Under the pieces are notes generated by a model. The model made no database searches and was not told the DNA's origin. It worked only from the letters and a program-made list of their open reading frames with translations. Of a DNA stretch of 64,000 nt, positions 2,113-63,842 are shown piece after piece (position 1 is the first letter of the stretch; each line of letters begins with the position of its first letter). The DNA comes from a virus: positions 96,001-160,000 of IMG/VR virus record IMGVR_UViG_3300017991_000003, one strand, 5' to 3'. Both the position numbers and the translations under genes were made by a program.

Positions 2113-2163
2113 GTCCGGTCGGAGCGGGGGTTTATACTCCTAGCAGGCGTAGGAGCCGCTTCT

Positions 2164-2186
2164 CTGGCACTGGGTGCCAGTGCCAG
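2164..2186. repeat. palindromic element copy 1 (CTGGCACTGG-GTG-CCAGTGCCAG), perfect 10-bp arms
   Basis: read directly; lies 7 bp upstream of ATG 2193. Confidence 0.8.
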
Positions 2187-8500: not shown

Positions 8501-8981
8501 TGACGTGGCGGCAGCTGGTGGTGGGCAGGCCACGCCTTTCGAGTGGGCGCATCGGACGTTCCTCAAACGAGAGGCCACGAGCTTGGGGCAGTTCCTCGAG
8601 GATCACAAGCTCGAGCTCGTGACGCAGTTTGCCGACCGACCCACCACCAAGGAGTTCTATCAGATGCGTCCGGTCTCAGGATCGCAGACGACAACCGGAG
8701 CTGGGCTGGTATTCGACGATAGCCTCTTCAGTAAGCTGGTGGATGAGAAGAAGATGACCAACCCTGCATCCACTGTGGTTAGTGATGTTCTTGAGCAGGT
8801 TCTTCCTGGACCCTTCAACGCGGTGGCCGCCTCCGCGGTAGACGCGGCTTCAAGCGATCCATTGATCCAGGAGGCTCGAGAGCAGGCCACCAACAAGTAC
8901 CTGACCACTCAAGCACGGCAGGAGTTGATCCTGTCCTATGCCCGCAAGCACTTCGGCGACCGAGGTTTCGATGGCACGTGA
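5502..8981 (+). CDS. very large hypothetical protein (1159 aa); possible structural protein
   Basis: ORF track; 3.5-kb uninterrupted frame; no catalytic motif recognised. Confidence 0.65.
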   Translation: MTAETRAGLLASQWKIFLDGVEVPHHGFSMVMSQDQVSEVMLSLEPDKILLELRPQTMVHIFAKDRFPDPAPGQEDEEGGVQFAKTYTSDEDELKDTWHLFWEGVAAGRTHQKSKGNRSIQVRARALVESLERTPAFMMGMGGIEYSSIASGSRLPATVAGVIEGGGPSSVDTLSLFTLADLFTNDGETGSDVPGRDSATPRFAERLIRLITYLSSYNGVLRQHVVRGRLLNKIASIPDSILEGILERSVGLSLLGDMQNRITSRSSVLDIIRQVMSYGFYHLVQVPMPYRPSKQPEMGSMIPTLTGKQDEEQATAHQIPYEYYRNDYVFVPETYYALPPPCNFVFPDEMADLSIGREFQSEPTRHLVQDPHLASFVGNFFYWLAPEDIIRKAREGAGDDVTSANLFAMASTFGRSINVSGATSPYAYPDSADLESGSVRSLLGAVSDLELEKGIVPSFGQNRFEALAAAAYLSRTIPRTEDQATAQSIEDFANPENAAYADLMAAVANYQLQLMRYRRQGQVSMLGHRWIIPGLPTIIFDSDISYFGQVVSTTFVVNSDGQESTTLQLDRTRPVPKMEIEEIRAALEGLSTKLQELQTQKSKVADQALGQTISSALSGPLASQTTQYGGLGAKIEQTQSALQNWNTYIGGDTVDLVTTTGAPIQETLTIEGTQFDGTGLTTYFQDLSTEAAEIQAGLDELLVDGAAVAKALNTGEIAVGGSAFSTTLTKGDQTIYAAGNVSPAYLAYLFLDVPVLVDTTGQITAAKAALGDGFSVSGLKSALGSIVNGGASSDVFTGGEAPNTVAGALAVLTVAATYYELATAAIVEWLTIQKDIADSGENLDFLDLPPSTQAAADQSYKDQYQTIVDTLTNEIIEDGQKVLEDFDTRLDWPAPPAFFSEDLIATEKLDDLYQTSFGCKPFYTGPYTATATNETVAAIRASLTELDLGELETESGLSMQDRLEYYLEYLSGVSALNNVYPILEGQEELTDDVAPPPSWHDVAAAGGGQATPFEWAHRTFLKREATSLGQFLEDHKLELVTQFADRPTTKEFYQMRPVSGSQTTTGAGLVFDDSLFSKLVDEKKMTNPASTVVSDVLEQVLPGPFNAVAASAVDAASSDPLIQEAREQATNKYLTTQARQELILSYARKHFGDRGFDGT

Positions 8982-9711
8982 TACGACTGATCGGCCGAGT
9001 AAGGCCATCCGAGACGCCCGGAAGGATACCGATCTAGGTCTGGTAGAGCGGGCGCAGAAGGGCGACAAGGAGGCGCTGAACCGGCTGATCCGTAGCCACA
9101 TGGATCTGATCCAGATGAAGGCCCGCGGGTTCCGTAACGCCCCCATCCCAATCGCGGCGATCGAGGGTGAGGGTATGCGGCTTCTGGCTTTGGCGGTTAC
9201 CAAGTTCGACCCGTCCCAGGGTGTGGCCTTCCGCACGTTCCTCGACAACTACCTGCGCGGGCTCTACCGCTACGTCAACAGCAACAAGCGCGTGGACCGG
9301 GCGCCGGAGCACAGGCACCTGCGCTTCCACCGGTACGAGGCGGTCAAGGGCCTCCTGCGGGTGGAGCATAGTCGAGAGCCCACGGTGGCCGAGCTCTCCG
9401 ATGCGTTGGGCTGGAGCCCTACGGATGTGAAGCAGATGGACCGGATGATGTCCCAGCGTAGCCTGGCGGGCAGCGGCCTCGAGAACGTCAAGGCACTGGA
9501 CCAAGCGCACAGCCGGTACCAGGAGTCGGTTGAGCTGGCGTACGCGGGGTGGACCAAGCAGCAGCAGGCTGTCTACGATCTCAGCATGGGCGCGCACGGT
9601 AAGCAGCGCCTATCATCTGTGCCGGCCATCGCCCGCACCCTTGGGATCACGGCCGACAAGGTCTACAAGATCAAGCGGGAGCTGGCCCAGGAGCTTGGTA
9701 GTTCCCTATGA
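8971..9711 (+). CDS. sigma-70 family RNA polymerase sigma factor (phage-encoded)
   Basis: internal ATG at 8971 (GAGG 8 nt upstream) preferred over ORF-track start 8938; region-2-like LVERAQKGDKEALNRLIRSHMDLI...GMRLLALAVTKFDPSQGVAFRTFLDNYLRG and region-4-like HTH VPAIARTLGITADKVYKIKRELAQEL. Confidence 0.65.
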   Translation: MARDTTDRPSKAIRDARKDTDLGLVERAQKGDKEALNRLIRSHMDLIQMKARGFRNAPIPIAAIEGEGMRLLALAVTKFDPSQGVAFRTFLDNYLRGLYRYVNSNKRVDRAPEHRHLRFHRYEAVKGLLRVEHSREPTVAELSDALGWSPTDVKQMDRMMSQRSLAGSGLENVKALDQAHSRYQESVELAYAGWTKQQQAVYDLSMGAHGKQRLSSVPAIARTLGITADKVYKIKRELAQELGSSL

Positions 9712-10302: not shown

Positions 10303-10313
10303 TACTCATGCCC
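10303..10313 (-). promoter_or_regulatory. promoter-like motif copy (plus strand ATACTCATGCC)
   Basis: variant of the recurring GGACTYATGMC motif; 51 bp upstream of ATG 10252. Confidence 0.4.
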
Positions 10314-11401: not shown

Positions 11402-11798
11402 TGGGCGAGATCAGGTCGAGCGGCTCCTCGGTGATTCCGGCCATTTCGAGGATCTGAATCGGGGTCAGCGCCTCGGTCGGGTCGTCGCTCCAGGTCATAC
11501 CGCCCGTGAGGAGGTAGACGCGCTTGTCGATGAGCAGCGTCCCCACGTCTCGGCGGTTGCTGTTCAGCACGTCGATCGCGCCCTTGATCGTTTCACTCAT
11601 CTCATCCAGGCGATCGTCCTCTGCATCGTCCTCGCCCCAGATGATGCTGCACATATCCAGCAGCCGGTCACGGGTCAGCGTCTCCGCCCTCTTCTCGAGC
11701 TCTTCGACGCCGTCAGGGTGGTCGGTGATGCAGTAGATCGTCTTACCGTCGTTGAAGGTCGGTAGCTGTGTGATGGCGAAGTTGAAGAATGCACCCAT
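11394..11798 (-). CDS. hypothetical protein (134 aa)
   Basis: ORF track; ATG at 11798. Confidence 0.5.
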   Translation of the reverse strand: MGAFFNFAITQLPTFNDGKTIYCITDHPDGVEELEKRAETLTRDRLLDMCSIIWGEDDAEDDRLDEMSETIKGAIDVLNSNRRDVGTLLIDKRVYLLTGGMTWSDDPTEALTPIQILEMAGITEEPLDLISPNE

Positions 11799-13283: not shown

Positions 13284-13374
13284 CTCCGTCCGTCGAACCG
13301 GCCGAAGGCCCTGGAGTGCGATTTCCTCGTACTCCGGGGCCTTGCTCTATACTTGGGGGTGTGGAGGTAACCCC

Positions 13375-23907: not shown

Positions 23908-23926
23908 CACTGGGAGGGAGTGTCAG
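23904..23926. repeat. palindromic element copy 2 (CTGACACT-GGGAGGG-AGTGTCAG)
   Basis: overlaps stop codons of the convergent genes 21982-23907 and thyX. Confidence 0.8.
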
Positions 23927-24780
23927 TAAGGCTGCGTCTGCATGCCTGTGATCTCCAGAAGTCCGTCGACCTCTTCGGTCTGAGCATCGAACAAGAGGCC
24001 CGGGCACTGCTCCATCAGGATCTCGTAGACCTGGTTGAAGATCAGGCGGATTTCCCATTCGGCATGCCGGGAGGTGCGCATCATCAGCATGTGCCGCAGG
24101 GAGCGGACGTTAGCGGACCACCCCAGCTCGTTGGCTTGCCCGTTGGGAAGGACGCGTCGCAGGGCCGAGGTGACCTTCTTCTTGGTAGCGAAGTCCCGGA
24201 TCGGCTCGTCCGGTAGGGCTGATGGGTCTCCCCAGCTGCGGCGCGCTTCCTCGAGCTCGTCATCGGAGCAGACGCCCAAGCGGAGCCGCATCGCGTCGTA
24301 GTGGTCTGTGATGGCGTTGATGACTAGCTCTACTTCATCCATGACCGGAGCCAGGATAGGGTCGACGACGACGTCCAGCTGATCCGTGCGGACGTACCGA
24401 CCACTGGTTTGACTGAAGGCCGTGCCGGCGCGATGCCGAACCATCTCGTGGGTGAAGACGCGGGAGCAGTTCGTGGTTACGAAGTTGAAGGACACATGCT
24501 CGAAGACGCTGCCGTGTCCGTGCTCCAGGGTGGCTCGCACGTTGTCGGCGATGTCACGCGTGCGGCTGATGTTCTCGTTCTTGCCTGGGGTCAGGGCGCT
24601 GTAGCAGAGCTTGGCGTAGAAGCTCGAGATGATCTCCAGATCAGACAGCCCCTGCTGCCTCGCCTTGGCGATGTCAGCCAAGAAGGAGGATTGGTTCGTG
24701 GCTCGGAGATACCCGCTGACAGCGTGGAGGTCCAGCTGGGTGCATCCGATGAGGTGTGTGGTGGGTTCGACGATGGTCAT
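23923..24780 (-). CDS. thyX: flavin-dependent thymidylate synthase ThyX
   Basis: ThyX signature R-H-R-x7-S in HEMVRHRAGTAFSQTSGRY; internal ATG 24780 (MTIVEPT) preferred over ORF-track 24864. Confidence 0.8.
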   Translation of the reverse strand: MTIVEPTTHLIGCTQLDLHAVSGYLRATNQSSFLADIAKARQQGLSDLEIISSFYAKLCYSALTPGKNENISRTRDIADNVRATLEHGHGSVFEHVSFNFVTTNCSRVFTHEMVRHRAGTAFSQTSGRYVRTDQLDVVVDPILAPVMDEVELVINAITDHYDAMRLRLGVCSDDELEEARRSWGDPSALPDEPIRDFATKKKVTSALRRVLPNGQANELGWSANVRSLRHMLMMRTSRHAEWEIRLIFNQVYEILMEQCPGLLFDAQTEEVDGLLEITGMQTQPY

Positions 24781-28366: not shown

Positions 28367-30778
28367 ATGCACCGAGCCACACTCATTACCACCGTCCCCA
28401 ACCTCCCCAAGTTCATCCTACGCGGCGTTGTACCACTGCCGCGTGGCTACACATTCGGCGGACCCGGCCAGGACTGCCCTTTTACCATCAAACACCCCCT
28501 GCTGGATGAGAACTGCCCGACGCAGTGGCAACCGGTAAGCTACTACCCGTCGGAGGTGGGACAGGACGCCGAGGTCGCGTCGGCCGAGATTCTTGCCGTG
28601 ATCGACCGCGATGATCTTCCGCCGGGTGTGCGCGCCTTCTTCCAGCTACATGAAGAGGCCAGTGCCTGGTCGTACCCCGAGCCGGCCACCGAGGCGATCC
28701 TGATGACGCAGATGAAGGACGCGGTGCGTCTGCGCGCTACGGATTTCTTCGGCAACGTCTACGAGGCATCCCTGTCTCGCAACATGTTTGCGCAGGTCCC
28801 CGGAGGCCCGAGCGGGCTACCCACCGGTCCGGGAACGATCCTCGACACGCGGACGCATCGCATGGGCTGTGCGATGGGCACGGTGGAGACACACGGGTGG
28901 CTTGACAAGAAGGGCCCGGGTACGGCGGAGGCCCTGCCGTGGTTCTTGGGCTGGCAGGCATTCTTCTCTGTCCGCACCGGCTCGGACGTGGTCGAGCTCG
29001 CGCTCAACGTGCACAACGCCTTCAGCCCTCCCAAGAATCTGTCGGACCCTGCGGGCCATATGTACTTCAAGGAACTCAGCCTGGTGGTGCCCAAGGGCTG
29101 GGCGATCATGTCGGAGTGGCCAGAGCCGTCGATGGGTTCTCCGAAGCCTGATGACAACGACGCCTTCTACGTCATCCCGCTGGTGGCGGCCAATGAGGAC
29201 GGCACGATGCATATGATGGCGCAGCAGGCGGAGCGGGAGTGGCGCCTAGTCCTCTTTGAGGAGGGGAACCAGAGCAACGCACAGGAGGTGCTCAACCAGT
29301 ATGGTTGGGCTGTCCCCGCGCACGACACTGCCGAGGCGGGCCTTGAGAATCCCTGGTGCTGGCAGAACGAGGAGACGGGGAACTACCAAGCACAGCGTTT
29401 CCCGGTCCCGTCCCTGGACCCGCAAGCCTGCCTGGAGCGCACCCTCGTCGAGTACTCGAAGATCCGGGCGGCGTTGGCCTCTCGTACGGCGGTGCAGTAC
29501 CCCGACGCCAAGCCTTATGGTTACTTCCATCCCTACGGCGTGTCCTATGGTGGCATGACTGGGGGCAGCGAGATCTTCCCCTTCGACGGTCTCGTGGAGC
29601 TTACGGCCGGGTCGGTCGAGGGCTTGCTCTACACCCGAGCGCTGCACTTCATGTACAGCTGTCGTCAGCAGGGGATGATCTACAACATCAAGGGCAAGCC
29701 GACCCGCTTCGAGGACTACCTCAAGGATGGGACGTGCGACTGGCACTACCTCAACGCCAAGTGGTATCCCGGCTATGACGGGGACTACGACTTCCTGAAC
29801 GCTGTCTCGACACACCGGCCGGCCATCGAGGCCGCGGGACAGCTCCCGGTCTACGAGCCGCAGGTGACTCGCGAGTATGGCAGCTACTCTTCGTACTATC
29901 AGCCGCAGGACTTCCAGCACTACGTCCGACGCACGCGTAGCTGTCGGACGCTGGCGTGGCTGGACAACGACCCGCTAGCCAAGCGCAAGCTCGAGATGCT
30001 CGCCGAGATCGGGCTGATGTGGTACCACGACATGCCGAGCAACTCGGCGGCCGGCGTCTTCGGCCACCTCTCCACGGAGATCACCGACGGCGGCGACGGC
30101 ATGACCATCCCCGAGGGGCGTGGCGCTGCTTGGGTCATGGACACGGCGGCCGCGGCCTATGCCGTAGGTGAGAAGAGCTGGCGAGACCGCGCTGTCGTCC
30201 GCTCCTGGTTCGAGGCGGTGACCTTCGTACTACGCTCAAGCCTGACCCCGGCCGGCATCTGTCAGGGCTACCGCAAGGGCAAGATGGTCACCATGCACCC
30301 CTTCCTGGGGCAGTACGTCGTCTGCCACCCGTTCGAGCAGGGCCTCCTAGCCCACGGCATGCAGGCCATCCTCAAGTCGGTGTGTGAGGGGCTCGAGGGC
30401 GCCGAAGAAGGACTCTGTCGTGAGTTCCTCCAGATCCAGGCTGATGGGCTGGCCCGCTACATGTGGCGTGACGGTACTGGCGGCGCGTGGACGAAGATGG
30501 CGGTGGGCCCACTCGATGGTGAGCCCTTCGAGTCCATTGACGAGGTCCCCGAGGACGGGTTCTATGGCCCCTACCCCGAGGTCTGGCAGATCGTTCCCGG
30601 CATGGCCTACGCGCTGGCCGATCCCGAGCTCTCCAACGTGACGCGCACCGCACTCATGGCTCGGGTCACGGACTATGCTGGCGGGCACCCGGATCCTGTG
30701 GAGTGGTTCGAAGGGCAAGGCCTGAAGATGATCGAAAACCGGGCGCCGCTGCTTGCATGGCTCCAGTTGAACGACTAG
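28367..30778 (+). CDS. large hypothetical protein (803 aa), W/Y/G-rich; possibly enzymatic or structural
   Basis: ORF track; ATG 28367; followed by hairpin plus T-tract terminator. Confidence 0.65.
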   Translation: MHRATLITTVPNLPKFILRGVVPLPRGYTFGGPGQDCPFTIKHPLLDENCPTQWQPVSYYPSEVGQDAEVASAEILAVIDRDDLPPGVRAFFQLHEEASAWSYPEPATEAILMTQMKDAVRLRATDFFGNVYEASLSRNMFAQVPGGPSGLPTGPGTILDTRTHRMGCAMGTVETHGWLDKKGPGTAEALPWFLGWQAFFSVRTGSDVVELALNVHNAFSPPKNLSDPAGHMYFKELSLVVPKGWAIMSEWPEPSMGSPKPDDNDAFYVIPLVAANEDGTMHMMAQQAEREWRLVLFEEGNQSNAQEVLNQYGWAVPAHDTAEAGLENPWCWQNEETGNYQAQRFPVPSLDPQACLERTLVEYSKIRAALASRTAVQYPDAKPYGYFHPYGVSYGGMTGGSEIFPFDGLVELTAGSVEGLLYTRALHFMYSCRQQGMIYNIKGKPTRFEDYLKDGTCDWHYLNAKWYPGYDGDYDFLNAVSTHRPAIEAAGQLPVYEPQVTREYGSYSSYYQPQDFQHYVRRTRSCRTLAWLDNDPLAKRKLEMLAEIGLMWYHDMPSNSAAGVFGHLSTEITDGGDGMTIPEGRGAAWVMDTAAAAYAVGEKSWRDRAVVRSWFEAVTFVLRSSLTPAGICQGYRKGKMVTMHPFLGQYVVCHPFEQGLLAHGMQAILKSVCEGLEGAEEGLCREFLQIQADGLARYMWRDGTGGAWTKMAVGPLDGEPFESIDEVPEDGFYGPYPEVWQIVPGMAYALADPELSNVTRTALMARVTDYAGGHPDPVEWFEGQGLKMIENRAPLLAWLQLND

Positions 30779-30824
30779 ATTGAGGGTCGATCGCAGGTAG
30801 GCATCTGTGGTCGGTGTAGAGGTA

Positions 30825-30863
30825 GGCCCGGTACCGCACGCAGCGGCGCCGGGCCTTCTTTTT
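30825..30863 (+). terminator. rho-independent terminator-like hairpin plus T-tract
   Basis: GGCCCGG...CCGGGCC followed by TTCTTTTT after stop of 28367-30778. Confidence 0.55.
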
Positions 30864-30865
30864 AG

Positions 30866-30888
30866 CTGGCACTGGCTAGGAGTGTCAG
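30866..30888. repeat. palindromic element copy 3 (CTGGCACT-GGCTAGG-AGTGTCAG)
   Basis: sits between a plus-strand and a minus-strand hairpin terminator at a convergent junction. Confidence 0.8.
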
Positions 30889-30912
30889 TAAAAAGAGAGC
30901 CCCGAAGGGCTC
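30889..30912 (-). terminator. rho-independent terminator (minus strand)
   Basis: GAGCCC-CGAA-GGGCTC hairpin followed on minus strand by TCTTTTT. Confidence 0.6.
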
Positions 30913-30944
30913 CGGCCCCTGAGGGCTCCGGCCCCGCAGGGGGC

Positions 30945-31286
30945 CTACTGGTCTCGGCGCTTCTTGAGATCCTCGATCCAGCGGGAGACCGCTTCGATCA
31001 TCTCGTACGGCACGCCCTCGTGCCGAAGGATCGCCTCGGCATCGGCGATCTGCTGGTTGAGCTCCGGGCGGGCCAGCTCCGGTTCGGGCTCCGGCTCCGC
31101 CGTCTTCGCGGTGCTGGCGCCGCAGGCCGCGAGACCCATGACGGCCTCGCCGACCTTGGCGATCTCGCCCGCGAGCTCGACGACGTTCCCCTCGAGCTCC
31201 CAGCTCGAGGCGCTTTTGAGGACCTCGCGACCGTCATCGGTCAGGACGGTGAGGGTGTAGGCGGGGATGTTGATCGAGATTTTCAT
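30945..31286 (-). CDS. hypothetical protein (113 aa)
   Basis: internal ATG 31286 (MKISIN); own promoter-like motif, conserved leader hairpin and terminator. Confidence 0.5.
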   Translation of the reverse strand: MKISINIPAYTLTVLTDDGREVLKSASSWELEGNVVELAGEIAKVGEAVMGLAACGASTAKTAEPEPEPELARPELNQQIADAEAILRHEGVPYEMIEAVSRWIEDLKKRRDQ

Positions 31287-31305
31287 CTGGGTGGGTGGTG
31301 GTGAT

Positions 31306-31335
31306 GGTGTCTCCGGAGTAGACATCTCCGGATCA
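31306..31335 (-). promoter_or_regulatory. conserved 5' leader element with hairpin (stem TCCGGA/TCCGGA, loop GTAGACATC)
   Basis: aligns with the 46202 and 47869 copies; stem differs by a compensatory pair of substitutions. Confidence 0.55.
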
Positions 31336-31337
31336 CT

Positions 31338-31348
31338 AAACACATGCC
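31338..31348 (-). promoter_or_regulatory. promoter-like motif copy, variant (AAACACATGCC)
   Basis: 52 bp upstream of ATG 31286. Confidence 0.4.
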
Positions 31349-31385
31349 CCACAACCCCCTCTTAGTTGCTGTTTCAGGTACCAGC

Positions 31386-31407
31386 TAAAAGAGGGGCCGA
31401 AGCCCCT
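31386..31407 (-). terminator. rho-independent terminator (minus strand)
   Basis: AGGGGC-CGAA-GCCCCT hairpin with TCTTTTAG on minus strand. Confidence 0.5.
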
Positions 31408-31429
31408 AGCCGGCTTACGGGCCGGCGAC

Positions 31430-31627
31430 CTAGCTCACGATAGCGGCATAGAGTGCACCTGATCCCAGGGCCATCCACAGGATGACACCCACGATCATGG
31501 CTCCGATGAAGAGCCAACTCACAGTCGCCTCATACCAGTCGGCGTCCGCGCCGGGTCTGAGATCCTCTCTGCCGCGGATCAGCCACGGGATGAACTTGAA
31601 GGCCATGACGAGGGCGAAGGCCAGCAT
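31430..31627 (-). CDS. small membrane protein (65 aa)
   Basis: ORF track; two hydrophobic segments; hairpin terminator downstream. Confidence 0.4.
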   Translation of the reverse strand: MLAFALVMAFKFIPWLIRGREDLRPGADADWYEATVSWLFIGAMIVGVILWMALGSGALYAAIVS

Positions 31628-31662
31628 AGGAGCCCAACTACCCAGCAGAACAATACCATGGT

Positions 31663-32067
31663 CTATACCTCCTCCTCGAAGAGCTTCCAGACCTCGAAGT
31701 CGCTGAGCCGGCGCCTCGAGCCGTCCTGCATGACCCAGCAGGGATCACCCATCACATCGAACTGGGCCAGCGTTACGCGGTCGTTCACGTCATGCCACGT
31801 CTGGGCTACATGCACCGGGTGAGACCGGAGCGTCGTCGGCACGACCCGGGGCAGGACCTGGTCCGTGCGGCTCCACAGCTTGGTGGATGGCGTGCGGCTG
31901 AAGGTCAGCTGACCGTCCAGCAGGATCTTCTCGAGTCGACGAACGTCCTCAGCCATTCGGTCCTCACCAGCGGCCTCAAGGCTTTCTCGATCGGCAGCCA
32001 GCATCTTGTAGAGCAGGGTGACAAGCTCGAGTTCCATCTCGAAGGCGAAGATCGCTGTGTTACTCAT
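31663..32067 (-). CDS. hypothetical protein (134 aa)
   Basis: ORF track; ATG 32067. Confidence 0.45.
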   Translation of the reverse strand: MSNTAIFAFEMELELVTLLYKMLAADRESLEAAGEDRMAEDVRRLEKILLDGQLTFSRTPSTKLWSRTDQVLPRVVPTTLRSHPVHVAQTWHDVNDRVTLAQFDVMGDPCWVMQDGSRRRLSDFEVWKLFEEEV

Positions 32068-37003: not shown

Positions 37004-37090
37004 TGGTGCAGGAAGGGGGACTCGAACCCCCACGCCCGGGTGGGCACGTGGACCTAAACCACGGGCGTCTACCGATTCCGCCACTCCTGC
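37004..37090 (-). tRNA. tRNA-Leu (anticodon TAG)
   Basis: cloverleaf read by hand on minus strand: acceptor GCAGGAG/CTTCCTGC, anticodon loop TTTAGGT, long variable arm, T-arm GGGGGTTCGAGTCCCCC, encoded CCA. Confidence 0.8.
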
Positions 37091-37164
37091 ATGTAAAGGC
37101 ATCGATGACCCGTGGGAGAGTTTCCCCACTCTGTGTTGAGCCCACAGATCATCGATGTGATTGA

Positions 37165-37250
37165 TGGTGCGGGAGGAGGGACTCGAACCCTCACGCCCGA
37201 AGGCAGTGGATTTTGAATCCACCGTGTCTACCGATTCCAACCACCCCCGC
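37165..37250 (-). tRNA. tRNA-Leu (anticodon CAA)
   Basis: acceptor GCGGGGG/CTCCCGC, anticodon loop TTCAAAA, long variable arm, T-arm GAGGGTTCGAGTCCCTC, encoded CCA. Confidence 0.8.
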
Positions 37251-39543: not shown

Positions 39544-39566
39544 GTGGCACTGGCTAGGAGTGTCAG
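39544..39566. repeat. palindromic element copy 4 (gTGGCACT-GGCTAGG-AGTGTCAG)
   Basis: divergent region; immediately 5' of ATG 39541 (minus) and just upstream of a TTGACA hexamer preceding the GroES-like gene. Confidence 0.75.
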
Positions 39567-39625
39567 GGTGGGAAAACTGTCTCCATATCTTGACAGAGGG
39601 GCGCCGGCTAGGCACGATCCCTGGC

Positions 39626-40776: not shown

Positions 40777-40788
40777 ACTCATGACTCA

Positions 40789-44939: not shown

Positions 44940-45197
44940 TCAGGGGCGGAGCCGCAGCCCCCGAGAGGTGACCAGCACCTTACGGTGCGGGACCTTGGGG
45001 AGCTTCGGCAGGGGCGGGAGGTCGACGTCGGTGTCGACGACCGCCTCCACCAGGGACTCGCCGTCCGCCCCGCTGATGTGGAGGCGGCGGTGCTCGCTGT
45101 TCTCGGTCACGTGGACCGAGCCCAGCGGGGTTTTGACCTTGGCGATGGTTCGCTCGGGGGCGATCCACGCCAAGATCTCGTCGAAGAACCCCATCAC
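44940..45197 (-). CDS. hypothetical protein (85 aa)
   Basis: ORF track; last gene of a 5-gene overlapping operon. Confidence 0.4.
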   Translation of the reverse strand: MMGFFDEILAWIAPERTIAKVKTPLGSVHVTENSEHRRLHISGADGESLVEAVVDTDVDLPPLPKLPKVPHRKVLVTSRGLRLRP

Positions 45198-45376
45198 TTG
45201 CAGAGCAGCGGGTTCTTCCCCCGCTGCTTGATGCGGCGCACCCTCGCGCGGAGGGTGTGCTCGATGGAGAGGGGCTGCCCGCGGAGGCGGGAGGTGACGG
45301 CGATGTCTAGGCCGCGCATGGGGGAGATCTTCCCCCGGCGGACCTTGAGCATCACCTGGCGACTGAGATTGCTCAT
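45194..45376 (-). CDS. hypothetical basic protein (60 aa)
   Basis: ORF track; overlapping start/stop. Confidence 0.4.
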   Translation of the reverse strand: MSNLSRQVMLKVRRGKISPMRGLDIAVTSRLRGQPLSIEHTLRARVRRIKQRGKNPLLCK

Positions 45377-45573
45377 GTGGTCAGGTGGTCGGCGAAGGCC
45401 CAGGTGACGGCCTCCGCGAAGTTGGGGGTGAGGGTGGCGTAGCCCGTCTCTACGTGGGAGACGTGGGACTGACTGAACCCGATACGCGCAGCGAACTGCG
45501 CTTGGGACAGGCCCAGCCCCTTCCTGATCCAGCGGACCAGGCGGGGGCTGAGCTCGACGGTGGTGGCGATCAC
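45373..45573 (-). CDS. XRE-family helix-turn-helix transcriptional regulator
   Basis: LGLSQAQFAARIGFSQSHVSHVETG HTH pattern. Confidence 0.6.
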   Translation of the reverse strand: MIATTVELSPRLVRWIRKGLGLSQAQFAARIGFSQSHVSHVETGYATLTPNFAEAVTWAFADHLTT

Positions 45574-45857
45574 GACGCCTCCTCCGCGTCCGCCCAGGCT
45601 CGGGCGATCTGACGCATGGGAGCCCTCTGGGAGAGGGGCCGGACGGTCACGAGAGTGATGAGACGCTTGTGGCCGATCGTGATGAGCGGCTGCTCGTAGC
45701 CGCCCCGCGAGGCGGCCTCACGCACCTTCTTTTTGAAGGTGGTGAGCTGCGGGCTGTGAGCAGGCAGGCCGATCAGGGATTGACCTACTTCCTCGAACAC
45801 CTCGCAGATGACCTCGGGCATGAGGGGCCGCAGCGGTTCTCGCATGGGGTTCTTCAT
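45570..45857 (-). CDS. hypothetical protein (95 aa)
   Basis: C-terminal protein-like part of a longer R-rich ORF; internal ATG 45857 in ATGA overlap. Confidence 0.4.
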   Translation of the reverse strand: MKNPMREPLRPLMPEVICEVFEEVGQSLIGLPAHSPQLTTFKKKVREAASRGGYEQPLITIGHKRLITLVTVRPLSQRAPMRQIARAWADAEEAS

Positions 45858-46198
45858 CGGATCTCGAACCCCAGCTTTTCGGCGAGTTCGACCGTGGCGG
45901 TGCGGCTCGTGTGGTGGCGGGAGAACGCCACCTCGCCGGTGGCGAGGTCCACGTACCAGCGGTTGCCGCCGCCAATGCCGTAGATCGTCACGTGACCGGA
46001 CTGGCCACGCATACGCAGGGCGTGGCCCCACGTGTATTGAGAGGACTCGGGGTCCTCGATGGAGTCCATCTGGCTCAGGAGCCAGGCGACCCCGTTTGCG
46101 TCGCGGCGCTCCTCGTCGTAGGTCGACGAGAAGCCCTCGACTTCTGCCATGTCGATGAGCGTCTCGGCGCTCATGATACGACCGGTCAGGGTGGTCAT
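45854..46198 (-). CDS. hypothetical protein (114 aa), first gene of operon
   Basis: ORF track; ATG 46198 directly abutting the conserved 42-bp leader cassette. Confidence 0.5.
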   Translation of the reverse strand: MTTLTGRIMSAETLIDMAEVEGFSSTYDEERRDANGVAWLLSQMDSIEDPESSQYTWGHALRMRGQSGHVTIYGIGGGNRWYVDLATGEVAFSRHHTSRTATVELAEKLGFEIR

Positions 46199-46201
46199 GG
46201 T

Positions 46202-46243
46202 GTTGGGTGGTGAGGGTGTCTCCGGGTAGACATCCCCGGATCA
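46202..46243 (-). promoter_or_regulatory. 42-bp leader cassette GTTGGGTGGTGAGGGTGTCTCCGGGTAGACATCCCCGGATCA with hairpin
   Basis: identical over 42 bp to 47869-47910; abuts start codon. Confidence 0.6.
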
Positions 46244-46245
46244 TT

Positions 46246-46256
46246 AGACTTATGCC
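46246..46256 (-). promoter_or_regulatory. promoter-like motif copy (AGACTTATGCC)
   Basis: 48 bp upstream of ATG 46198. Confidence 0.5.
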
Positions 46257-46357
46257 CTAACCTCTCCCCCTCCTGGCGCTTTTGGTCCATACTGGGGGCA
46301 CAACTTGACGCCCTTCGGGGCCGTCTCCCACGGATAACACAACTCCAGGAGAAGAGC

Positions 46358-47062
46358 ATGCTGCTCAACAACTTCAGCGTCCGCGTGCCTGAGGGACGCG
46401 AGCACCACCAGTACGTGGAGCTCCAGCACGACACCAAGTACAGCCTCGTCCTCGCCAACAAGAACACCGAGGACTGCGACGCCCGGGTAGAGATCGATGG
46501 GCAGGCTGTTGGGACCTGGCGGATCAAGGCCAAGTCCACGGTCCGGCTCGAGAGGCCGGTTGACTCGGAGGGTAGGTTTACCTTCTACAAACAAGGCACC
46601 GAGGAGGCGAGCAAGGCTCAGCTCGAGGCAGTCGGCGAGGACAAGCTCGGCCTGGTCTGCGTGTGGTTCACCCCGGCTAAGCGACAGCAGGTACCGCAGT
46701 GGATCAGTACCCCGCAGTGGGGCAGTCACTACCCGTCGCCTACGCCCCCGCCGATCCCCTTGGATTACCAAGTCGACTGCAACACGATCCAGACGGCTTT
46801 CTTCTGCGCGAGCTCTGCGGATATGCCTTCGATGAGCCAGAAGAGCGTGGGCTCGATCACGCGAGAGGCGCGCCTTATGTCTTCAGGAGGCACGGGCCTC
46901 TCGGGTAAGAGCACACAGCAGTTCGTTGAGGCTCAAGAGCTCGACCTAGACATGGATCGACAGACCTTCATCGCCCTGCGCCTCGTGTGCGTGGAGAAGG
47001 AGGAGTCGGACATCCGTCCTCTGGTGCAGCGAGCCACCCCTGTACCGCCGCCCCTGAAGTGA
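46358..47062 (+). CDS. hypothetical protein (234 aa)
   Basis: ATG 46358 with AGGAGAAGAG upstream. Confidence 0.55.
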   Translation: MLLNNFSVRVPEGREHHQYVELQHDTKYSLVLANKNTEDCDARVEIDGQAVGTWRIKAKSTVRLERPVDSEGRFTFYKQGTEEASKAQLEAVGEDKLGLVCVWFTPAKRQQVPQWISTPQWGSHYPSPTPPPIPLDYQVDCNTIQTAFFCASSADMPSMSQKSVGSITREARLMSSGGTGLSGKSTQQFVEAQELDLDMDRQTFIALRLVCVEKEESDIRPLVQRATPVPPPLK

Positions 47063-47076
47063 GGCAAAAAAGAAGG

Positions 47077-47099
47077 CTGGCACTGGCTCCCAGTGTCAG
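47077..47099. repeat. palindromic element copy 5 (CTGGCACTGG-CTC-CCAGTGTCAG); likely also a bidirectional terminator
   Basis: flanked by AAAAAAGAAGG upstream and TCTTCTTCT downstream at a convergent junction. Confidence 0.75.
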
Positions 47100-47114
47100 T
47101 CTTCTTCTCGCGGC

Positions 47115-47483
47115 TCACTCGGAGACGGCTCCAGCGGCTCGCATGGCCAGCGAGTGCAGGTAGTCGTACCGGTCCTTGAAGACATCGAAGGCCACAGTGC
47201 GGAGCTCGGCCTGGACCCAGGTGGCGTACTCGACCGGCGGTTCTTTCTGGATCAGCTCTTCAACGATCTCCCGAGGGAGGTAGGCGATGATCCAGTTCAT
47301 GTCGTCCACGCGTCCCCCAGATCCCGGAGGTCCGAAGCCCAGCTGGTGCACAGCGTACTGAGCGCTTTCGATGAAGTCCTCGGGAACGTCGAAGTCGTCT
47401 CGCCGGCCAGCAGCGAGCACCATGGCGGCCCAAGCCGCGTGGATACCTTGCCGGTACCCGCGCAGGTATTCGTCTTTAGTCAT
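47115..47483 (-). CDS. hypothetical protein (122 aa)
   Basis: ORF track. Confidence 0.5.
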   Translation of the reverse strand: MTKDEYLRGYRQGIHAAWAAMVLAAGRRDDFDVPEDFIESAQYAVHQLGFGPPGSGGRVDDMNWIIAYLPREIVEELIQKEPPVEYATWVQAELRTVAFDVFKDRYDYLHSLAMRAAGAVSE

Positions 47484-47868
47484 GGTTAGGAGGGGTTTGG
47501 CAGGTCTGGTAGATGCGGGCCATCTGGTCGAGCGCCGTCAACCGGATGGTGATGATCTTGCGGGCCACGTTTGCGACGGTCGCGCCACTGCCCTGCCGCA
47601 TCGACAGCTTGTGCGGCCGGGTCTGAAGGAGCTCAACGAGGTCCGTGTGAGCGAGGCGCTCGCGGAGGTCGGTGACGTACTCCGTGAGGAAGCCCTGAAG
47701 CTCCCCCGGCGGGTTGGCGGTCAGGACTGCCTTGGCCCTCGTGGGCGCGGTCCCGTCGAGCTGGCTCTGGAGGCGATCCCCGAAGGGAATCTGGGAGACC
47801 AGCTCGGCCCAGAGCCAGTCCCGGGCCAGGACCGCTGCCTGGCTGTAGATCTTGTCGGCGTGCTTCAT
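47476..47868 (-). CDS. hypothetical protein (130 aa), first gene of operon
   Basis: ATG 47868 abutting the conserved 42-bp leader cassette. Confidence 0.5.
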   Translation of the reverse strand: MKHADKIYSQAAVLARDWLWAELVSQIPFGDRLQSQLDGTAPTRAKAVLTANPPGELQGFLTEYVTDLRERLAHTDLVELLQTRPHKLSMRQGSGATVANVARKIITIRLTALDQMARIYQTCQTPPNHD

Positions 47869-47910
47869 GTTGGGTGGTGAGGGTGTCTCCGGGTAGACAT
47901 CCCCGGATCA
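47869..47910 (-). promoter_or_regulatory. 42-bp leader cassette, second identical copy
   Basis: identical to 46202-46243. Confidence 0.6.
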
Positions 47911-47912
47911 AA

Positions 47913-47923
47913 GGACTCATGAC
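47913..47923 (-). promoter_or_regulatory. promoter-like motif copy (GGACTCATGAC)
   Basis: 45 bp upstream of ATG 47868. Confidence 0.5.
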
Positions 47924-48050
47924 AGACCCAAGAGATGGGTTTGGCCCGCTAGTCCCTGGCACACATCCCGGCCTAGGCCCTAGACTTAGGACGAACCCTA
48001 AGGGCTCTTTCTGGGCCCCAAGTCCCCTTCTAACCGGATCCTGAGACACC

Positions 48051-48320
48051 ATGGACGCCGCCACTCTGTTCGAATCCCAGCTCCGCGAGAGCCTGGAGCG
48101 CCACAACACCCCCTCCATCATGGACAAGATCGCCGCTTTCCACGCGGAGCAGGGCGATCTCGTCGAAGACGTTGTTGAGGAGCTCCCCCTGGAAGACCGA
48201 CTCGCCAAGGTCGCTGAGGCCATCTCTGCTCGCCTGAACAGCGAGCCCGAGGAGCCCGAGGAGCCCGGGGAGGTCGAGGAGACCCCCGAGCAGAGCCTGC
48301 TCGAGCGCCTCCGCGGCTAG
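48051..48320 (+). CDS. hypothetical acidic protein (89 aa)
   Basis: ORF track; ATG 48051. Confidence 0.45.
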   Translation: MDAATLFESQLRESLERHNTPSIMDKIAAFHAEQGDLVEDVVEELPLEDRLAKVAEAISARLNSEPEEPEEPGEVEETPEQSLLERLRG

Positions 48321-54130: not shown

Positions 54131-54149
54131 CCTCTAACCCCACAGACTC

Positions 54150-54692
54150 ATGACGACCTCTATTCGAAAGCGGGTGAGCTGGTTCGGTGACCGGACCACG
54201 CGCATCCCCAAGCATCGCGGGCTTCACCCGAGCGGTACTCCGACGGAGATGCCTGAAGATGATGCCAACGACCTGATCCGAGACTATCCCAGTCACCTCG
54301 TGGTGGCTGACCCGATCACGTTGGTTGCGGAGCACATCGGTGAAGAGGTGGACCGGAAGGAGTTCTACGACGCTGGATACCGCTCCTACGGTACGCAGCC
54401 TGTGAAGTGGAAAGGCCCTGCGGTGACCTCGGTCACGCCGACGGCCAGCCCGGCTACGTCGCCTACGATCGTGTGGGACGCGATGCCCGCTCGGTTTGCT
54501 CCTCAGAGCTATCAGCTGTACCGAGGTACCGCGGCAGCGCCGAAAACGACGCTGGTGGGCTCGACTACCCTCCTGACGCTCAGCGAGGCCCCGCCGGCTC
54601 AAGGCACCTACATCTACAGCGTGACCTACACGGATCCCCACGGGTATGAGAGCGACGTCGGTACGTCGGTGTCTCACTACTCGTCTCCGTGA
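54150..54692 (+). CDS. hypothetical protein (180 aa), tandem paralogue B
   Basis: see paralogue A. Confidence 0.5.
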   Translation: MTTSIRKRVSWFGDRTTRIPKHRGLHPSGTPTEMPEDDANDLIRDYPSHLVVADPITLVAEHIGEEVDRKEFYDAGYRSYGTQPVKWKGPAVTSVTPTASPATSPTIVWDAMPARFAPQSYQLYRGTAAAPKTTLVGSTTLLTLSEAPPAQGTYIYSVTYTDPHGYESDVGTSVSHYSSP

Positions 54693-63819: not shown

Positions 63820-63842
63820 CTGGCACTGGTACCTAGTGTCAG
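63820..63842. repeat. palindromic element copy 6 (CTGGCACT-GGTACCT-AGTGTCAG)
   Basis: overlaps stop of the HTH gene 63839-63988 and abuts the promoter-like motif of the next gene. Confidence 0.8.

What the first reader, a model, noticed from the sequence alone, without database searches (positions are those of the whole stretch)
46202..46243. Exactly duplicated 42-bp promoter-leader cassette with a covarying hairpin, heading three transcription units
46202-46243 and 47869-47910 are identical over 42 bp (GTTGGGTGGTGAGGGTGTCTCCGGGTAGACATCCCCGGATCA) and directly abut the start codons of two minus-strand operons. A third copy (31306-31335) keeps the loop GTAGACATC but changes the stem from TCCGGG/CCCGGA to TCCGGA/TCCGGA, a compensatory pair of substitutions that preserves base pairing. 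All three also carry the promoter-like motif 45-52 bp upstream of the ATG. This suggests a co-regulated gene set with a structured 5' UTR or operator.
Basis: seen in the sequence. Interest (0 to 1): 0.65.

Follow-up and report, generated by a model that had tools for sequence, protein, structure and literature searches.

The report
Repeated phage promoter-leader hairpin cassette
Three small-gene operons of an uncultured large phage begin with the same phage-type promoter and a nearly identical 5' leader (a short hairpin, then a G-free tract with no Shine-Dalgarno site); this is a real but fairly ordinary kind of phage regulatory repeat, and whether it acts as RNA or as a repressor site is still open.

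Summary
46201-46243 and 47868-47910 are identical over 43 bp, and 31287-31335 is a diverged third copy. All three lie on the minus strand just 5' of an ATG. The window is part of a 174-193 kb uncultured phage from Salton Sea sediment with no close relatives in the searched collections. Each copy sits directly after a 16-nt motif, G-K-C-A-T-R-A-G-T-N4-T-G-A. That motif has 11 hits against 0.09 expected, is almost entirely intergenic, and heads about 10 minus-strand units. It is not sigma-70-like, and the phage encodes its own sigma factor. The identical block runs from the conserved TGA (the inferred transcription start) to the start codon, so it is the whole 5' UTR. That UTR consists of a hairpin next to the inferred 5' end (6 bp in copies A and B, 7 bp in C, about -12 kcal/mol) followed by a 19-25 nt G-free, C/A-rich tract with no Shine-Dalgarno site. 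Copy C keeps the hairpin through one substitution plus a 1-nt insertion, which is only a single weakly significant covariation event. The best reading is a shared leader that sets mRNA stability and SD-independent translation for three ORFan operons. A repressor operator, possibly for the HTH protein encoded in operon A, remains a serious rival. This is a new member of a known kind and of moderate interest.

The parts
46241..46256 (-). Copy A promoter-like motif GGCATAAGT-CTAA-TGA. The TGA is inferred to be positions -1/+1/+2.
   Evidence: Member of the G-K-C-A-T-R-A-G-T-N4-T-G-A class (11 hits vs 0.09 expected).
46221..46240 (-). Copy A hairpin TCCGGG-GATGTCTA-CCCGGA (6 bp stem, 8-nt loop containing an ATG).
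   Evidence: MFE -12 kcal/mol; for coordinates.
46199..46220 (-). Copy A G-poor C/A-rich tract GACACCCTCACCACCCAACACC, with no SD core, ending at ATG 46198.
44940..46198 (-). Operon A: genes of 114, 95, 66 (HTH_3/XRE), 60 (Arg-rich, pI 12) and 84 aa.
   Evidence: Gene calls. HTH. pI. The first gene is an ORFan.
47908..47923 (-). Copy B promoter-like motif GTCATGAGT-CCTT-TGA.
47888..47907 (-). Copy B hairpin, identical to copy A.
47869..47887 (-). Copy B G-poor tract GACACCCTCACCACCCAAC, directly abutting ATG 47868.
47115..47868 (-). Operon B: genes of 130 and 122 aa, both without family matches. It is followed by the hairpin at 47077-47104.
31333..31348 (-). Copy C promoter-like motif GGCATGTGT-TTAG-TGA.
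31312..31332 (-). Copy C hairpin TCCGGAG-ATGTCTA-CTCCGGA (7 bp stem, 7-nt loop).
31287..31311 (-). Copy C G-poor tract GACACCATCACCACCACCCACCCAG before ATG 31286.
30945..31286 (-). Gene C (113 aa, no family match), a monocistronic unit.
31392..31407 (-). Intrinsic terminator of the upstream unit, just 5' of promoter C.
30896..30913 (-). Intrinsic terminator ending unit C.
8938..9711 (+). Phage-encoded sigma-70-family factor (257 aa). It is the candidate reader of the CATRAGT promoter class; this link is inferred.
   Evidence: phrog_351, 9e-19; Sigma70_r3 above cutoff; regions 2-4 align to RpoS/SigA/SigF.

Best explanation
The cassette is a phage-specific promoter fused to a shared 5' untranslated leader.

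Shown:
- A 16-nt motif (G-K-C-A-T-R-A-G-T-N4-T-G-A) heads about 10 minus-strand units of this phage.
- Three of those units carry, starting exactly at the conserved TGA, the same leader. The leader is a GC-rich hairpin followed by a 19-25 nt G-free C/A-rich tract with no Shine-Dalgarno site, ending at the ATG.

Inferred:
- The motif is a -10-type element read by host RNA polymerase carrying the phage's own sigma factor.
- Transcription starts at the G or A of TGA, so the hairpin lies 1-2 nt from the 5' end of the mRNA.
- There it protects the transcript from 5'-end-dependent decay. The unstructured C/A tract serves as a ribosome standby or enhancer site that allows SD-independent initiation.
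- Sharing one leader gives the three ORFan operons the same mRNA half-life and translation rate, and a common handle for any factor that recognises the conserved loop.
For: - Motif enrichment and placement: the extended motif has 11 hits against 0.09 expected, 14 of 15 core hits are intergenic although 90% of the window is coding, and copies sit right after intrinsic terminators or in divergent gaps.
- No sigma-70-type site at A, B or C, and a phage sigma factor is present.
- The 43-bp identity begins at the conserved TGA and ends at the ATG, while the unconstrained promoter positions just upstream differ between A and B (CTAA vs CCTT). The unit of conservation is therefore the transcribed leader.
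- The hairpin folds in all three copies at about -12 to -13 kcal/mol.
- Copy C's G-to-A change alone would drop the MFE to -6.8. The accompanying insertion restores a 7-bp stem, and only 7 of 139 alternative second events do as well. The arm spacing changes by 1 nt, which an RNA loop tolerates better than a dimeric DNA site.
- The hairpin's distance to the promoter is invariant, while its distance to the ATG varies (19, 22 and 25 nt). This ties it to the transcript's 5' end and not to the ribosome binding site.
- Another promoter of the class (10304-10311) has an unrelated hairpin of the same geometry at the same place (TGGGG-N8-CCCCA).
- G-poor leaders: 10 of 94 genes have at most 1 G in positions -22..-1, against 0.4% of 22-mers genome-wide. 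All 10 are minus-strand genes, mostly first genes of their units. An SD core is present in only 29 of 94 genes.
- Single-stranded CA-rich tails of 16-18 nt strongly enhance initiation in E. coli (PMC5934652), and ACA/CA-rich motifs act as translational enhancers (PMC3879156).
- From my own knowledge: 5'-terminal stem-loops stabilise mRNAs such as ompA and the T7 gene 10 leader.
Against: - No transcription start has been mapped. The TSS assignment rests on spacing and the pyrimidine(-1)/purine(+1) rule.
- Hairpin energies are not better than dinucleotide shuffles (z -0.3 to -1.6).
- The covariation is a single event and is not significant in an unconditional test: 25-34% of random substitution-plus-insertion pairs fold as well. 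MAFFT/RNAalifold scores no compensatory pair.
- Most other promoters of the class have no 5' hairpin, so the hairpin is not a general requirement.
- Perfect identity of all 43 nt exceeds what a stabiliser hairpin plus an unstructured tract needs. It could instead reflect recent gene conversion or a sequence-specific ligand.
- The host is unknown, so the SD-independent mechanism is extrapolated from E. coli.
Confidence: 0.5

Rival explanations
1. DNA operator. The inverted repeat TCCGGG-N8-CCCGGA, at about +3 to +22 of the promoter, is the binding site of a dimeric phage repressor. An obvious candidate is the 66-aa XRE-type HTH protein encoded in operon A (45373-45573). It would shut off its own operon together with units B and C, Cro-like, by blocking promoter clearance.
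For: - There is perfect dyad symmetry in all copies, at a fixed position overlapping the inferred start site.
- An HTH_3 protein is encoded inside operon A.
- Only 3 of about 10 promoters of the class carry the repeat, as expected for a regulon-specific operator.
- Phage genomes commonly repeat operators in this way. Examples are the L5 stoperators, the Cluster O 17-bp palindromes and the ESAS repeats, which their authors judged to be more likely DNA sites (PMC3203893, PMC4351075).
- A 6-8-6 geometry resembles LexA-type boxes (my own knowledge).
Against: - Copy C changes both half-sites symmetrically and shifts their spacing by 1 bp. Each change would weaken binding of the same dimer, whereas together they preserve an RNA stem.
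- The non-palindromic spacer is fully conserved, and so is the 19-nt tract after the repeat. An operator model explains neither.
- No further half-sites or palindromes of this type occur elsewhere in the window.
Confidence: 0.2
2. RNA operator for a phage protein, working like a nut/boxB site or a translational operator. The hairpin, with its invariant loop AUGUCUA, would be bound in the nascent RNA by a phage-encoded RNA-binding protein. That protein would modify RNA polymerase (antitermination) or control use of the mRNA. A candidate is the Arg-rich 60-aa product of 45194-45376 in operon A.
For: - The loop is identical in all three copies while the stem changes.
- The same hairpin stands at the head of several operons, as the lambda nutL and nutR sites do (my own knowledge).
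- A very basic Arg-rich protein (pI 12) is encoded in operon A.
- The full 43-nt identity suggests sequence-specific recognition.
Against: - There is no boxA-like element, the loop is 7-8 nt and not a GNRA-like pentaloop, and no N, Q or coat-protein homologue was detected.
- Unit C is a single gene ending at a terminator that faces a convergent gene, so read-through there has no obvious benefit.
- The hairpin is 19-25 nt from the ATG, so it cannot occlude the start site.
Confidence: 0.12
3. Upstream ORF. The ATG in the hairpin loop starts translation near the 5' end. In copies A and B it opens an 11-12 codon uORF (MSTRRHPHHPT(P)*) whose TGA overlaps the main ATG (ATGA), delivering ribosomes to an SD-less gene by termination-reinitiation. 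In copy C the 1-nt insertion puts it in frame with the gene, giving a 13-aa N-terminal extension.
For: - Direct reading of the sequence shows these frames.
- The A/B indel is 3 nt and keeps the ATGA overlap.
- The main genes lack an SD core.
- ATGA and GTGA overlaps are common inside this phage's operons.
Against: - GC3 of these frames is about 0.5, against about 0.78 in real genes (and my own count).
- The loop ATG has no SD, and lies inside a hairpin.
- G- and T-poor tracts are open in most frames by composition. My rough estimate is that all three copies would look 'functional' by chance about 6% of the time.
- The other leaders of the class have no upstream ATG yet also lack an SD.
- Gene callers chose the downstream ATGs.
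Confidence: 0.06
4. No dedicated function for the identity. The 43-bp match would be the footprint of recent duplication, gene conversion or module exchange between two ordinary leaders 1.67 kb apart, with direct repeats flanking the module 46244-47868. The hairpin would then be incidental.
For: - The repeats are direct, close together, and bracket a self-contained module.
- Hairpin energy is no better than shuffles.
- The phage encodes recombination and repair nucleases.
- Short conserved boundary sequences are known crossover points in mosaic phages (my own knowledge).
Against: - A third, older copy 15 kb away keeps the hairpin, the loop and the tract despite about 20% divergence, with changes that preserve pairing.
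- The conversion tract would have to coincide exactly with the TGA-to-ATG interval.
Confidence: 0.1

Closest known systems
Phage T7 class III promoter phi10 with the gene 10 leader (5'-terminal stem-loop plus unstructured translational enhancer). Recalled from my own knowledge.
   Same: A phage-specific promoter is followed directly by a hairpin at the 5' end of the transcript, then by an unstructured enhancer tract and the start codon. The promoter is repeated at several units of the same temporal class.
   Different: T7 uses its own single-subunit polymerase and a 23-bp promoter, and its leader has a strong SD. Here the promoter is a short -10-like motif presumably read through a phage sigma factor, there is no SD, and the tract is C/A-rich.
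Start-associated sequences and extended SAS of Cluster K mycobacteriophages (PMC3203893)
   Same: Short repeats lie a few nt upstream of the start codons of many non-structural genes in one orientation. About half of them have adjacent inverted repeats. They are unique to one phage group, and their function is unknown but linked to gene starts.
   Different: The SAS is a 13-bp GGGATAGGAGCCC motif that includes an SD core. ESAS arms are 17 bp and do not covary as RNA. The present element lacks an SD, is anchored to a promoter and not to the ATG, and has only 3 copies.
Repeated phage operators: L5 stoperators, the Cluster O 17-bp palindrome TGTTCGGNNNCCGAACA (PMC4351075), and the phiC31 conserved inverted repeats at early promoters (the last from my own knowledge)
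   Same: A short conserved site with dyad symmetry is repeated at or near promoters of a subset of units, and a DNA-binding protein is encoded nearby.
   Different: Those sites occur in 20-35 copies with invariant arms and spacing. Here there are 3 copies, with a symmetric arm change and a 1-bp spacing change, and the conservation extends through the non-palindromic spacer and the downstream tract.
Lambda nutL/nutR boxB hairpins (my own knowledge)
   Same: The same small RNA hairpin is placed early in two or more operons of one phage, with loop sequence conserved.
   Different: There is no boxA, no pentaloop and no N homologue, and the hairpin is at the extreme 5' end rather than tens to hundreds of nt downstream.
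CA-rich standby tails and ACA enhancers of E. coli and Salmonella mRNAs (PMC5934652, PMC3879156)
   Same: A single-stranded C/A-rich stretch of about 16-25 nt lies just upstream of the start site.
   Different: In the studied cases the tract assists an SD-containing ribosome binding site. Here no SD is present, and the tract is C-rich (CCACC repeats) rather than strict CA or ACA repeats.

Membership tests
Canonical sigma-70 (housekeeping) promoter | A TTGACA-like -35 element, a 16-18 nt spacer, and a TATAAT-like -10 element with A at position 2 and T at position 6 | tested here: not met
   There were 0 sites in 45800-48300 and in 30700-31750. The conserved CATRAGT core has no register that gives both A-11 and T-7.
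Phage-specific repeated promoter class | The same motif is over-represented, intergenic, oriented toward downstream genes, and located after terminators or in divergent gaps | tested here: met
   The extended motif has 11 hits against 0.09 expected. Of 15 core hits, 14 are intergenic, although 90% of the window is coding. Promoter C lies 44 nt after an intrinsic terminator.
Phage-specific repeated promoter class | Transcription actually initiates there, dependent on the phage sigma factor | not testable with these tools
   No transcriptome is available. The link to the sigma factor at 8938-9711 is inference only.
5'-terminal stabilising stem-loop (ompA / T7 g10 type) | A stable hairpin is predicted in the leader | tested here: inconclusive
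   The MFE is -12 to -13 kcal/mol in all three copies, but z is only -0.3 to -1.6 against shuffles.
5'-terminal stabilising stem-loop (ompA / T7 g10 type) | No more than a few unpaired nt between the 5' end and the stem | not testable with these tools
   The TSS was inferred at the G or A of the conserved TGA, which would leave 1-2 unpaired nt. It has not been mapped.
Conserved RNA structure (covariation-supported) | Several independent compensatory changes | tested here: inconclusive
   There is one event (G to A plus an insertion giving A-U and an extra G-C pair). The conditional chance is about 5%, the unconditional test is not significant, and RNAalifold counts none. No homologues are available.
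Intrinsic terminator / attenuator | A GC-rich hairpin followed by a U-run | tested here: not met
   The hairpin is followed by GACACCC, and the scans call no terminator at the element on either strand.
Palindromic repressor operator | Dyad symmetry at or near the promoter | tested here: met
   TCCGGG-N8-CCCGGA in copies A and B, and TCCGGAG-N7-CTCCGGA in copy C, beginning 1 nt after the TGA.
Palindromic repressor operator | Constant half-site sequence and spacing among sites bound by one protein | tested here: not met
   Copy C changes both inner half-site positions, and the outer-to-outer length is 21 bp against 20 bp.
Palindromic repressor operator | A cognate protein binds the site | not testable with these tools
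   The candidate HTH_3 protein at 45373-45573 is known only by family match.
Lambda-type nut site | A boxA consensus plus a boxB 5-bp stem with a GNRA-like pentaloop, and an N-family protein | tested here: not met
   The loop is 7-8 nt, no boxA-like motif was seen, and no N or Q family hit was found for the operon proteins tested against PHROGs or Pfam.
Cluster K SAS/ESAS | The 13-bp GGGATAGGAGCCC motif (containing an SD core) 3-7 bp from the start codon | tested here: not met
   That sequence is absent. There is no SD core within -18..-4 of the three ATGs. The family definition is taken from PMC3203893.
Any Rfam family | A covariance-model match | tested here: not met
   At gathering score the window matched only two tRNAs. 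Nothing relevant appeared at E<=1 in 45800-48300.

The most novel reading that the evidence does not exclude
The leader could be a dedicated, sequence-specific translation and regulation module of a phage that initiates translation without Shine-Dalgarno pairing. In this reading, a hairpin next to the 5' end presents a conserved AUG-containing loop. A phage RNA-binding protein binds it, or ribosomes use it for a coupled uORF. A Kozak-like CCACC-rich, G-free tract then loads ribosomes directly onto the main AUG. That would define a new class of bacterial-virus initiation signal shared by about 10 units of this genome.
Probability: 0.12. Interest if true: 0.6.

Novelty: new member of a known kind. 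Interest (0 to 1): 0.33.

Why it matters
Promoter and leader repeats give a first regulatory map of an uncultured phage of about 180 kb whose genes are mostly ORFans. They define a promoter class, probably read by the phage's own sigma factor, and within that class a three-operon subset that shares one leader. The SD-less, G-free C/A leaders are a compact natural test case for standby or enhancer-driven initiation. They could also serve as portable expression parts. None of this changes current concepts, because similar cassettes are known from T7 and from actinophage genomes.

Tried and rejected
- **Near-identical DNA in INPHARED phages:** none found.
- **Exact or degenerate element patterns:** IMG/VR gave 0 hits in two scans. 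One of its contigs, a 91.6-kb contig (IMGVR_UViG_3300018080_003942), is this phage's own left arm, so no further copies exist there. JGI metagenome contigs gave 0 hits for the strict pattern. The hairpin-only pattern gave 6 hits, all chance matches inside unrelated coding sequence.
- **Extended flanks:** 9.4 kb to the left and 9.8 kb to the right of the window hold no further copies.
- **Protein homologues:** the first genes of operons A and B matched only themselves among 5.8 billion proteins, so no orthologous leaders are available for covariation.
- **Relatives found through other proteins:** searches with the sigma factor, the exonuclease, the DUF5661 protein and the 1262-aa protein found only distant phages. 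None carries the promoter motif.
- **Homologues of the neighbouring 234-aa gene:** these exist, but in non-syntenic phages that lack the element.
- **Rfam:** no family matched.
- **Antisense or sRNA partner:** no complementary copy occurs elsewhere in the window.
- **Additional palindromes of the operator type:** none above chance.
- **Paralogy among the eight encoded proteins:** none.
- **Rejected readings:**
  - An intrinsic terminator or attenuator, because there is no U-run.
  - An RNase III site, because the stem is too short.
  - A G-quadruplex on the plus strand, because the G-runs are not conserved in copy C.
  - An archaeal TATA/BRE promoter, because the phage has a bacterial sigma factor, intrinsic terminators and sigma-70-like promoters elsewhere.
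  - A sigma-dependent pause element in the loop, because only 3 of the 5 invariant promoter positions match.

Full report
**What is there.**
Read on the minus strand, 46243-46199 is TGA-TCCGGG-GATGTCTA-CCCGGA-GACACCCTCACCACCCAAC-ACC, followed by ATG at 46198. The stretch 47910-47869 is the same sequence without the final ACC, followed by ATG at 47868. The identity is 43 bp (46201-46243 = 47868-47910). Neither the 19-mer tract nor the hairpin pattern occurs in any of 100 shuffles. A third copy, 31335-31287, reads TGA-TCCGGAG-ATGTCTA-CTCCGGA-GACACCATCACCACCACCCACCCAG before ATG 31286. Two independent public assemblies carry identical sequence here. Their gene callers use the same three start codons.

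**Source.**
The window is positions 95,981-159,980 of a 174.7-kb ENA contig. The JGI sample 3300018080 also holds a 38-kb contig, and IMG/VR holds a 91.6-kb UViG contig from that sample that covers the left arm. PMC7449369 lists this metagenome (3300018080) among David Valentine's datasets. That it is Salton Sea sediment is from my own recollection of the JGI project title, not from a tool result.

The genome looks like a large phage:
- It encodes ThyX, with best matches at 37% identity to Streptomyces jumbo phages.
- It encodes an exonuclease and a sigma factor whose best database relatives are in cyanophages and Bacteroidales phages.
- It carries two tRNA-Leu genes.
- Most of its large proteins have no family match.
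- No close relative exists in INPHARED.

**Gene context.**
- Copy A heads five small genes (114, 95, 66, 60 and 84 aa; 46198 down to 44940). The 66-aa product is an XRE-type HTH protein and the 60-aa product is Arg-rich with pI 12.
- Copy B heads two genes (130 and 122 aa).
- Copy C heads one gene (113 aa). That unit is bracketed by intrinsic terminators at 31407-31392 and 30913-30896.
- The eight proteins are unrelated to one another. The first genes of A and B have no homologue among 5.8 billion proteins.

**The promoter.**
Each copy is preceded by [G/T]CAT[A/G][A/T]GT. This core occurs 15 times in the window, and 14 of these are intergenic although 90% of the window is coding. Twelve of them are on the minus strand. 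Aligning the 12 sites shows a longer motif: G(12/12)-K-C-A-T-R-A(11/12)-G-T-c-N3-T(11/12)-G(12/12)-A(10/12). The pattern with the TGA occurs 11 times against 0.09 expected.

Sites lie after intrinsic terminators (31348, 36399) or in divergent gaps (A, B, 21978, 12406). No -35 element is conserved, and no sigma-70-type site is found at A, B or C.

Elsewhere the phage does have sigma-70-like signals. These include TTGACA-N17-TATCTT just beyond the right edge of the window, and TATACT upstream of plus-strand units.

It also encodes a diverged sigma-70-family protein at 8938-9711. I infer a cascade in which host-type promoters express the phage sigma factor, which then reads the CATRAGT class. If C-A-T occupies positions -12 to -10, the invariant G of TGA is +1 and the T is -1. 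That fits the usual pyrimidine/purine start rule. This assignment is inference.

**The leader.**
The 43-bp identity starts at exactly that TGA and stops at the ATG. The unconstrained promoter positions immediately upstream differ between A and B (CTAA vs CCTT; GG vs TG). What is conserved is therefore the transcribed 5' UTR.

The UTR has two parts:

1. **A hairpin 1-2 nt from the inferred 5' end.** It has a 6-bp stem and 8-nt loop in A and B, and a 7-bp stem and 7-nt loop in C, with MFE of -12 to -13 kcal/mol.
2. **A 19-25 nt tract with no G after the leading GA.** It is rich in CCACC and contains no GGAG/GAGG/AGGA within -18..-4 of the ATG.

This tract type is a genome-wide feature of the promoter class. 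Ten of 94 genes have at most 1 G in positions -22..-1, against 0.4% of all 22-mers, and all ten are on the minus strand. CCACC is about 5-fold enriched upstream of starts, and only 29 of 94 genes have an SD core. Experimental work in E. coli and Salmonella shows that single-stranded CA-rich tails of 16-18 nt, and ACA/CA-rich motifs, strongly stimulate initiation (PMC5934652, PMC3879156).

**Is the hairpin selected?**
Evidence for selection:
- All three copies fold.
- The loop AUGUCUA is invariant.
- Copy C's G-to-A change alone would lower the MFE to -6.8 kcal/mol. Of 139 possible second single events, 7 restore it to -11 or better. By my reading of the structures printed there, only about 3 of the 7 rebuild the same hairpin.
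- The accompanying insertion also adds a G-C pair.
- The hairpin keeps a fixed distance to the promoter while its distance to the ATG varies (19, 22, 25 nt).
- Promoter 10311 has an unrelated hairpin of the same geometry at the same place.

Evidence against:
- Energies are no better than shuffles.
- 25-34% of random substitution-plus-insertion pairs fold as well.
- RNAalifold on the MAFFT alignment scores no compensatory pair.
- Most promoters of the class have no hairpin.
- No relatives could be found to add events.

**Mechanism.**
- **Preferred reading (0.5).** A phage-sigma promoter is fused to a shared leader. Its 5'-terminal hairpin stabilises the mRNA, and its unstructured C/A tract drives SD-independent initiation. 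This gives the three operons common post-transcriptional behaviour.
- **DNA operator (0.2).** The main rival is an operator for the HTH protein of operon A. Dyad symmetry, position and the local HTH gene support it. The symmetric arm change, the 1-bp spacing change, and the conservation of the asymmetric spacer and the downstream tract weaken it.
- **Hairpin as a protein-binding RNA operator or nut-like site (0.12).**
- **A uORF starting at the loop ATG (0.06).** It has an ATGA overlap with the main ATG in A and B and is in frame in C, but GC3 is about 0.5 and there is no SD.
- **A neutral footprint of gene conversion or module exchange between direct repeats 1.67 kb apart (0.1).**

**Comparison and novelty.**
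The cassette works like the T7 phi10/gene-10 leader. It also resembles the repeats catalogued in actinophage genomes: SAS/ESAS, stoperators and the Cluster O palindromes (PMC3203893, PMC4351075). It meets the defining features of none of these by sequence, and it matches no Rfam family. It is best filed as a new member of the known kind 'repeated phage promoter/leader elements'. Interest is moderate. The least ordinary aspect is the SD-less, G-free, CCACC-rich leader class.

Noticed in passing
window, minus strand: 479-472, 10311-10304, 12406-12399, 20967-20960, 21978-21971, 31347-31340, 36399-36392, 46255-46248, 47922-47915, 63801-63794: These sites form a phage-specific promoter class, G-K-C-A-T-R-A-G-T-N4-T-G-A, with 11 hits against 0.09 expected. 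All functional-looking copies drive minus-strand units, and no -35 element is conserved. The likely reader is the phage sigma factor at 8938-9711(+).
   Followed up: yes
window 40777-40784(-) and 54146-54153(-): Two further copies of the promoter core lie on the minus strand inside plus-strand gene clusters. The one at 40784 has the full extended motif. They could be antisense promoters or chance matches; the second overlaps the ATG of the plus-strand gene at 54150.
   Followed up: no
window, positions -30..-1 of the minus-strand genes starting at 11798, 12348, 19352, 20918, 21935, 31286, 36357, 46198, 47483 and 60145: These genes have G-free, CCACC-rich ('Kozak-like') leaders without a Shine-Dalgarno core. 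At most 1 G occurs in -22..-1 in 10 of 94 genes, against 0.4% of 22-mers genome-wide. Only 31% of all genes have an SD core. The host is unknown.
   Followed up: partly
window 46327-46360(+) and loci L109, L110, L112, L114, L125 (the 35 nt before the homologous ATG): The divergent 234-aa gene (46358-47062) belongs to a family with 51 metagenomic homologues (36-48% identity) in non-syntenic phage contigs of 44-63% GC. Six to seven of the 10 lineages examined keep a conserved leader, yACGG-N2-3-AAyACAA-N1-2-CCA-AAGGAGA-N5-7-ATG. This may be a gene-specific promoter, 5' UTR or translational operator that travels with the gene. It is not in Rfam.
   Followed up: partly
window 2164-2186, 23902-23929, 30866-30893, 39544-39571, 47077-47099, 63820-63842: A family of hairpins with a conserved sequence, CTGRCACTGG-N3-4-CCAGTGYCAG, lies at unit ends or convergent junctions and once directly before an ATG (2193). 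They resemble terminators but mostly lack a clear T-run. They may be a phage-specific termination or processing signal.
   Followed up: partly
window 46232-46196(-), 47899-47866(-), 31325-31284(-): The invariant hairpin loop contains an ATG. In copies A and B it opens an 11-12 codon ORF (MSTRRHPHHPT(P)*) whose TGA overlaps the main ATG (ATGA). In copy C it is in frame with the gene.
   Followed up: partly
window 2133-2138, 13348-13359, 46288-46298 (+); L004 about 8790-8820: A second, host-like promoter type occurs on other units. Examples are (T/C)ATACT followed by GGGGG upstream of plus-strand units, and TTGACA-N17-TATCTT upstream of a 285-aa plus HTH operon just beyond the right edge of the window. 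These fit an early (host sigma) to later (phage sigma) cascade.
   Followed up: partly
window 45194-45376(-): A 60-aa Arg-rich protein (pI 12) is encoded in operon A next to the HTH gene. It is a possible RNA-binding or antiterminator-like peptide. This is speculation only.
   Followed up: no
L003 4163-4897 and 8058-9161 (left of the window); L004 1-6704 (right of the window); window 23923-24780(-), 37004-37250(-): Other genome features: a reverse transcriptase (RVT_1) and a ThiF-like gene upstream of the window, a giant ORF of more than 3,400 aa downstream, ThyX, and two tRNA-Leu genes (anticodons TAG and CAA).
   Followed up: no
window about 31623 vs L022: The JGI contig differs from the window by an indel near 31623. 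This changes the small gene upstream of unit C (76 aa vs 65 aa). It is the only strain-level difference seen near the element.
   Followed up: no
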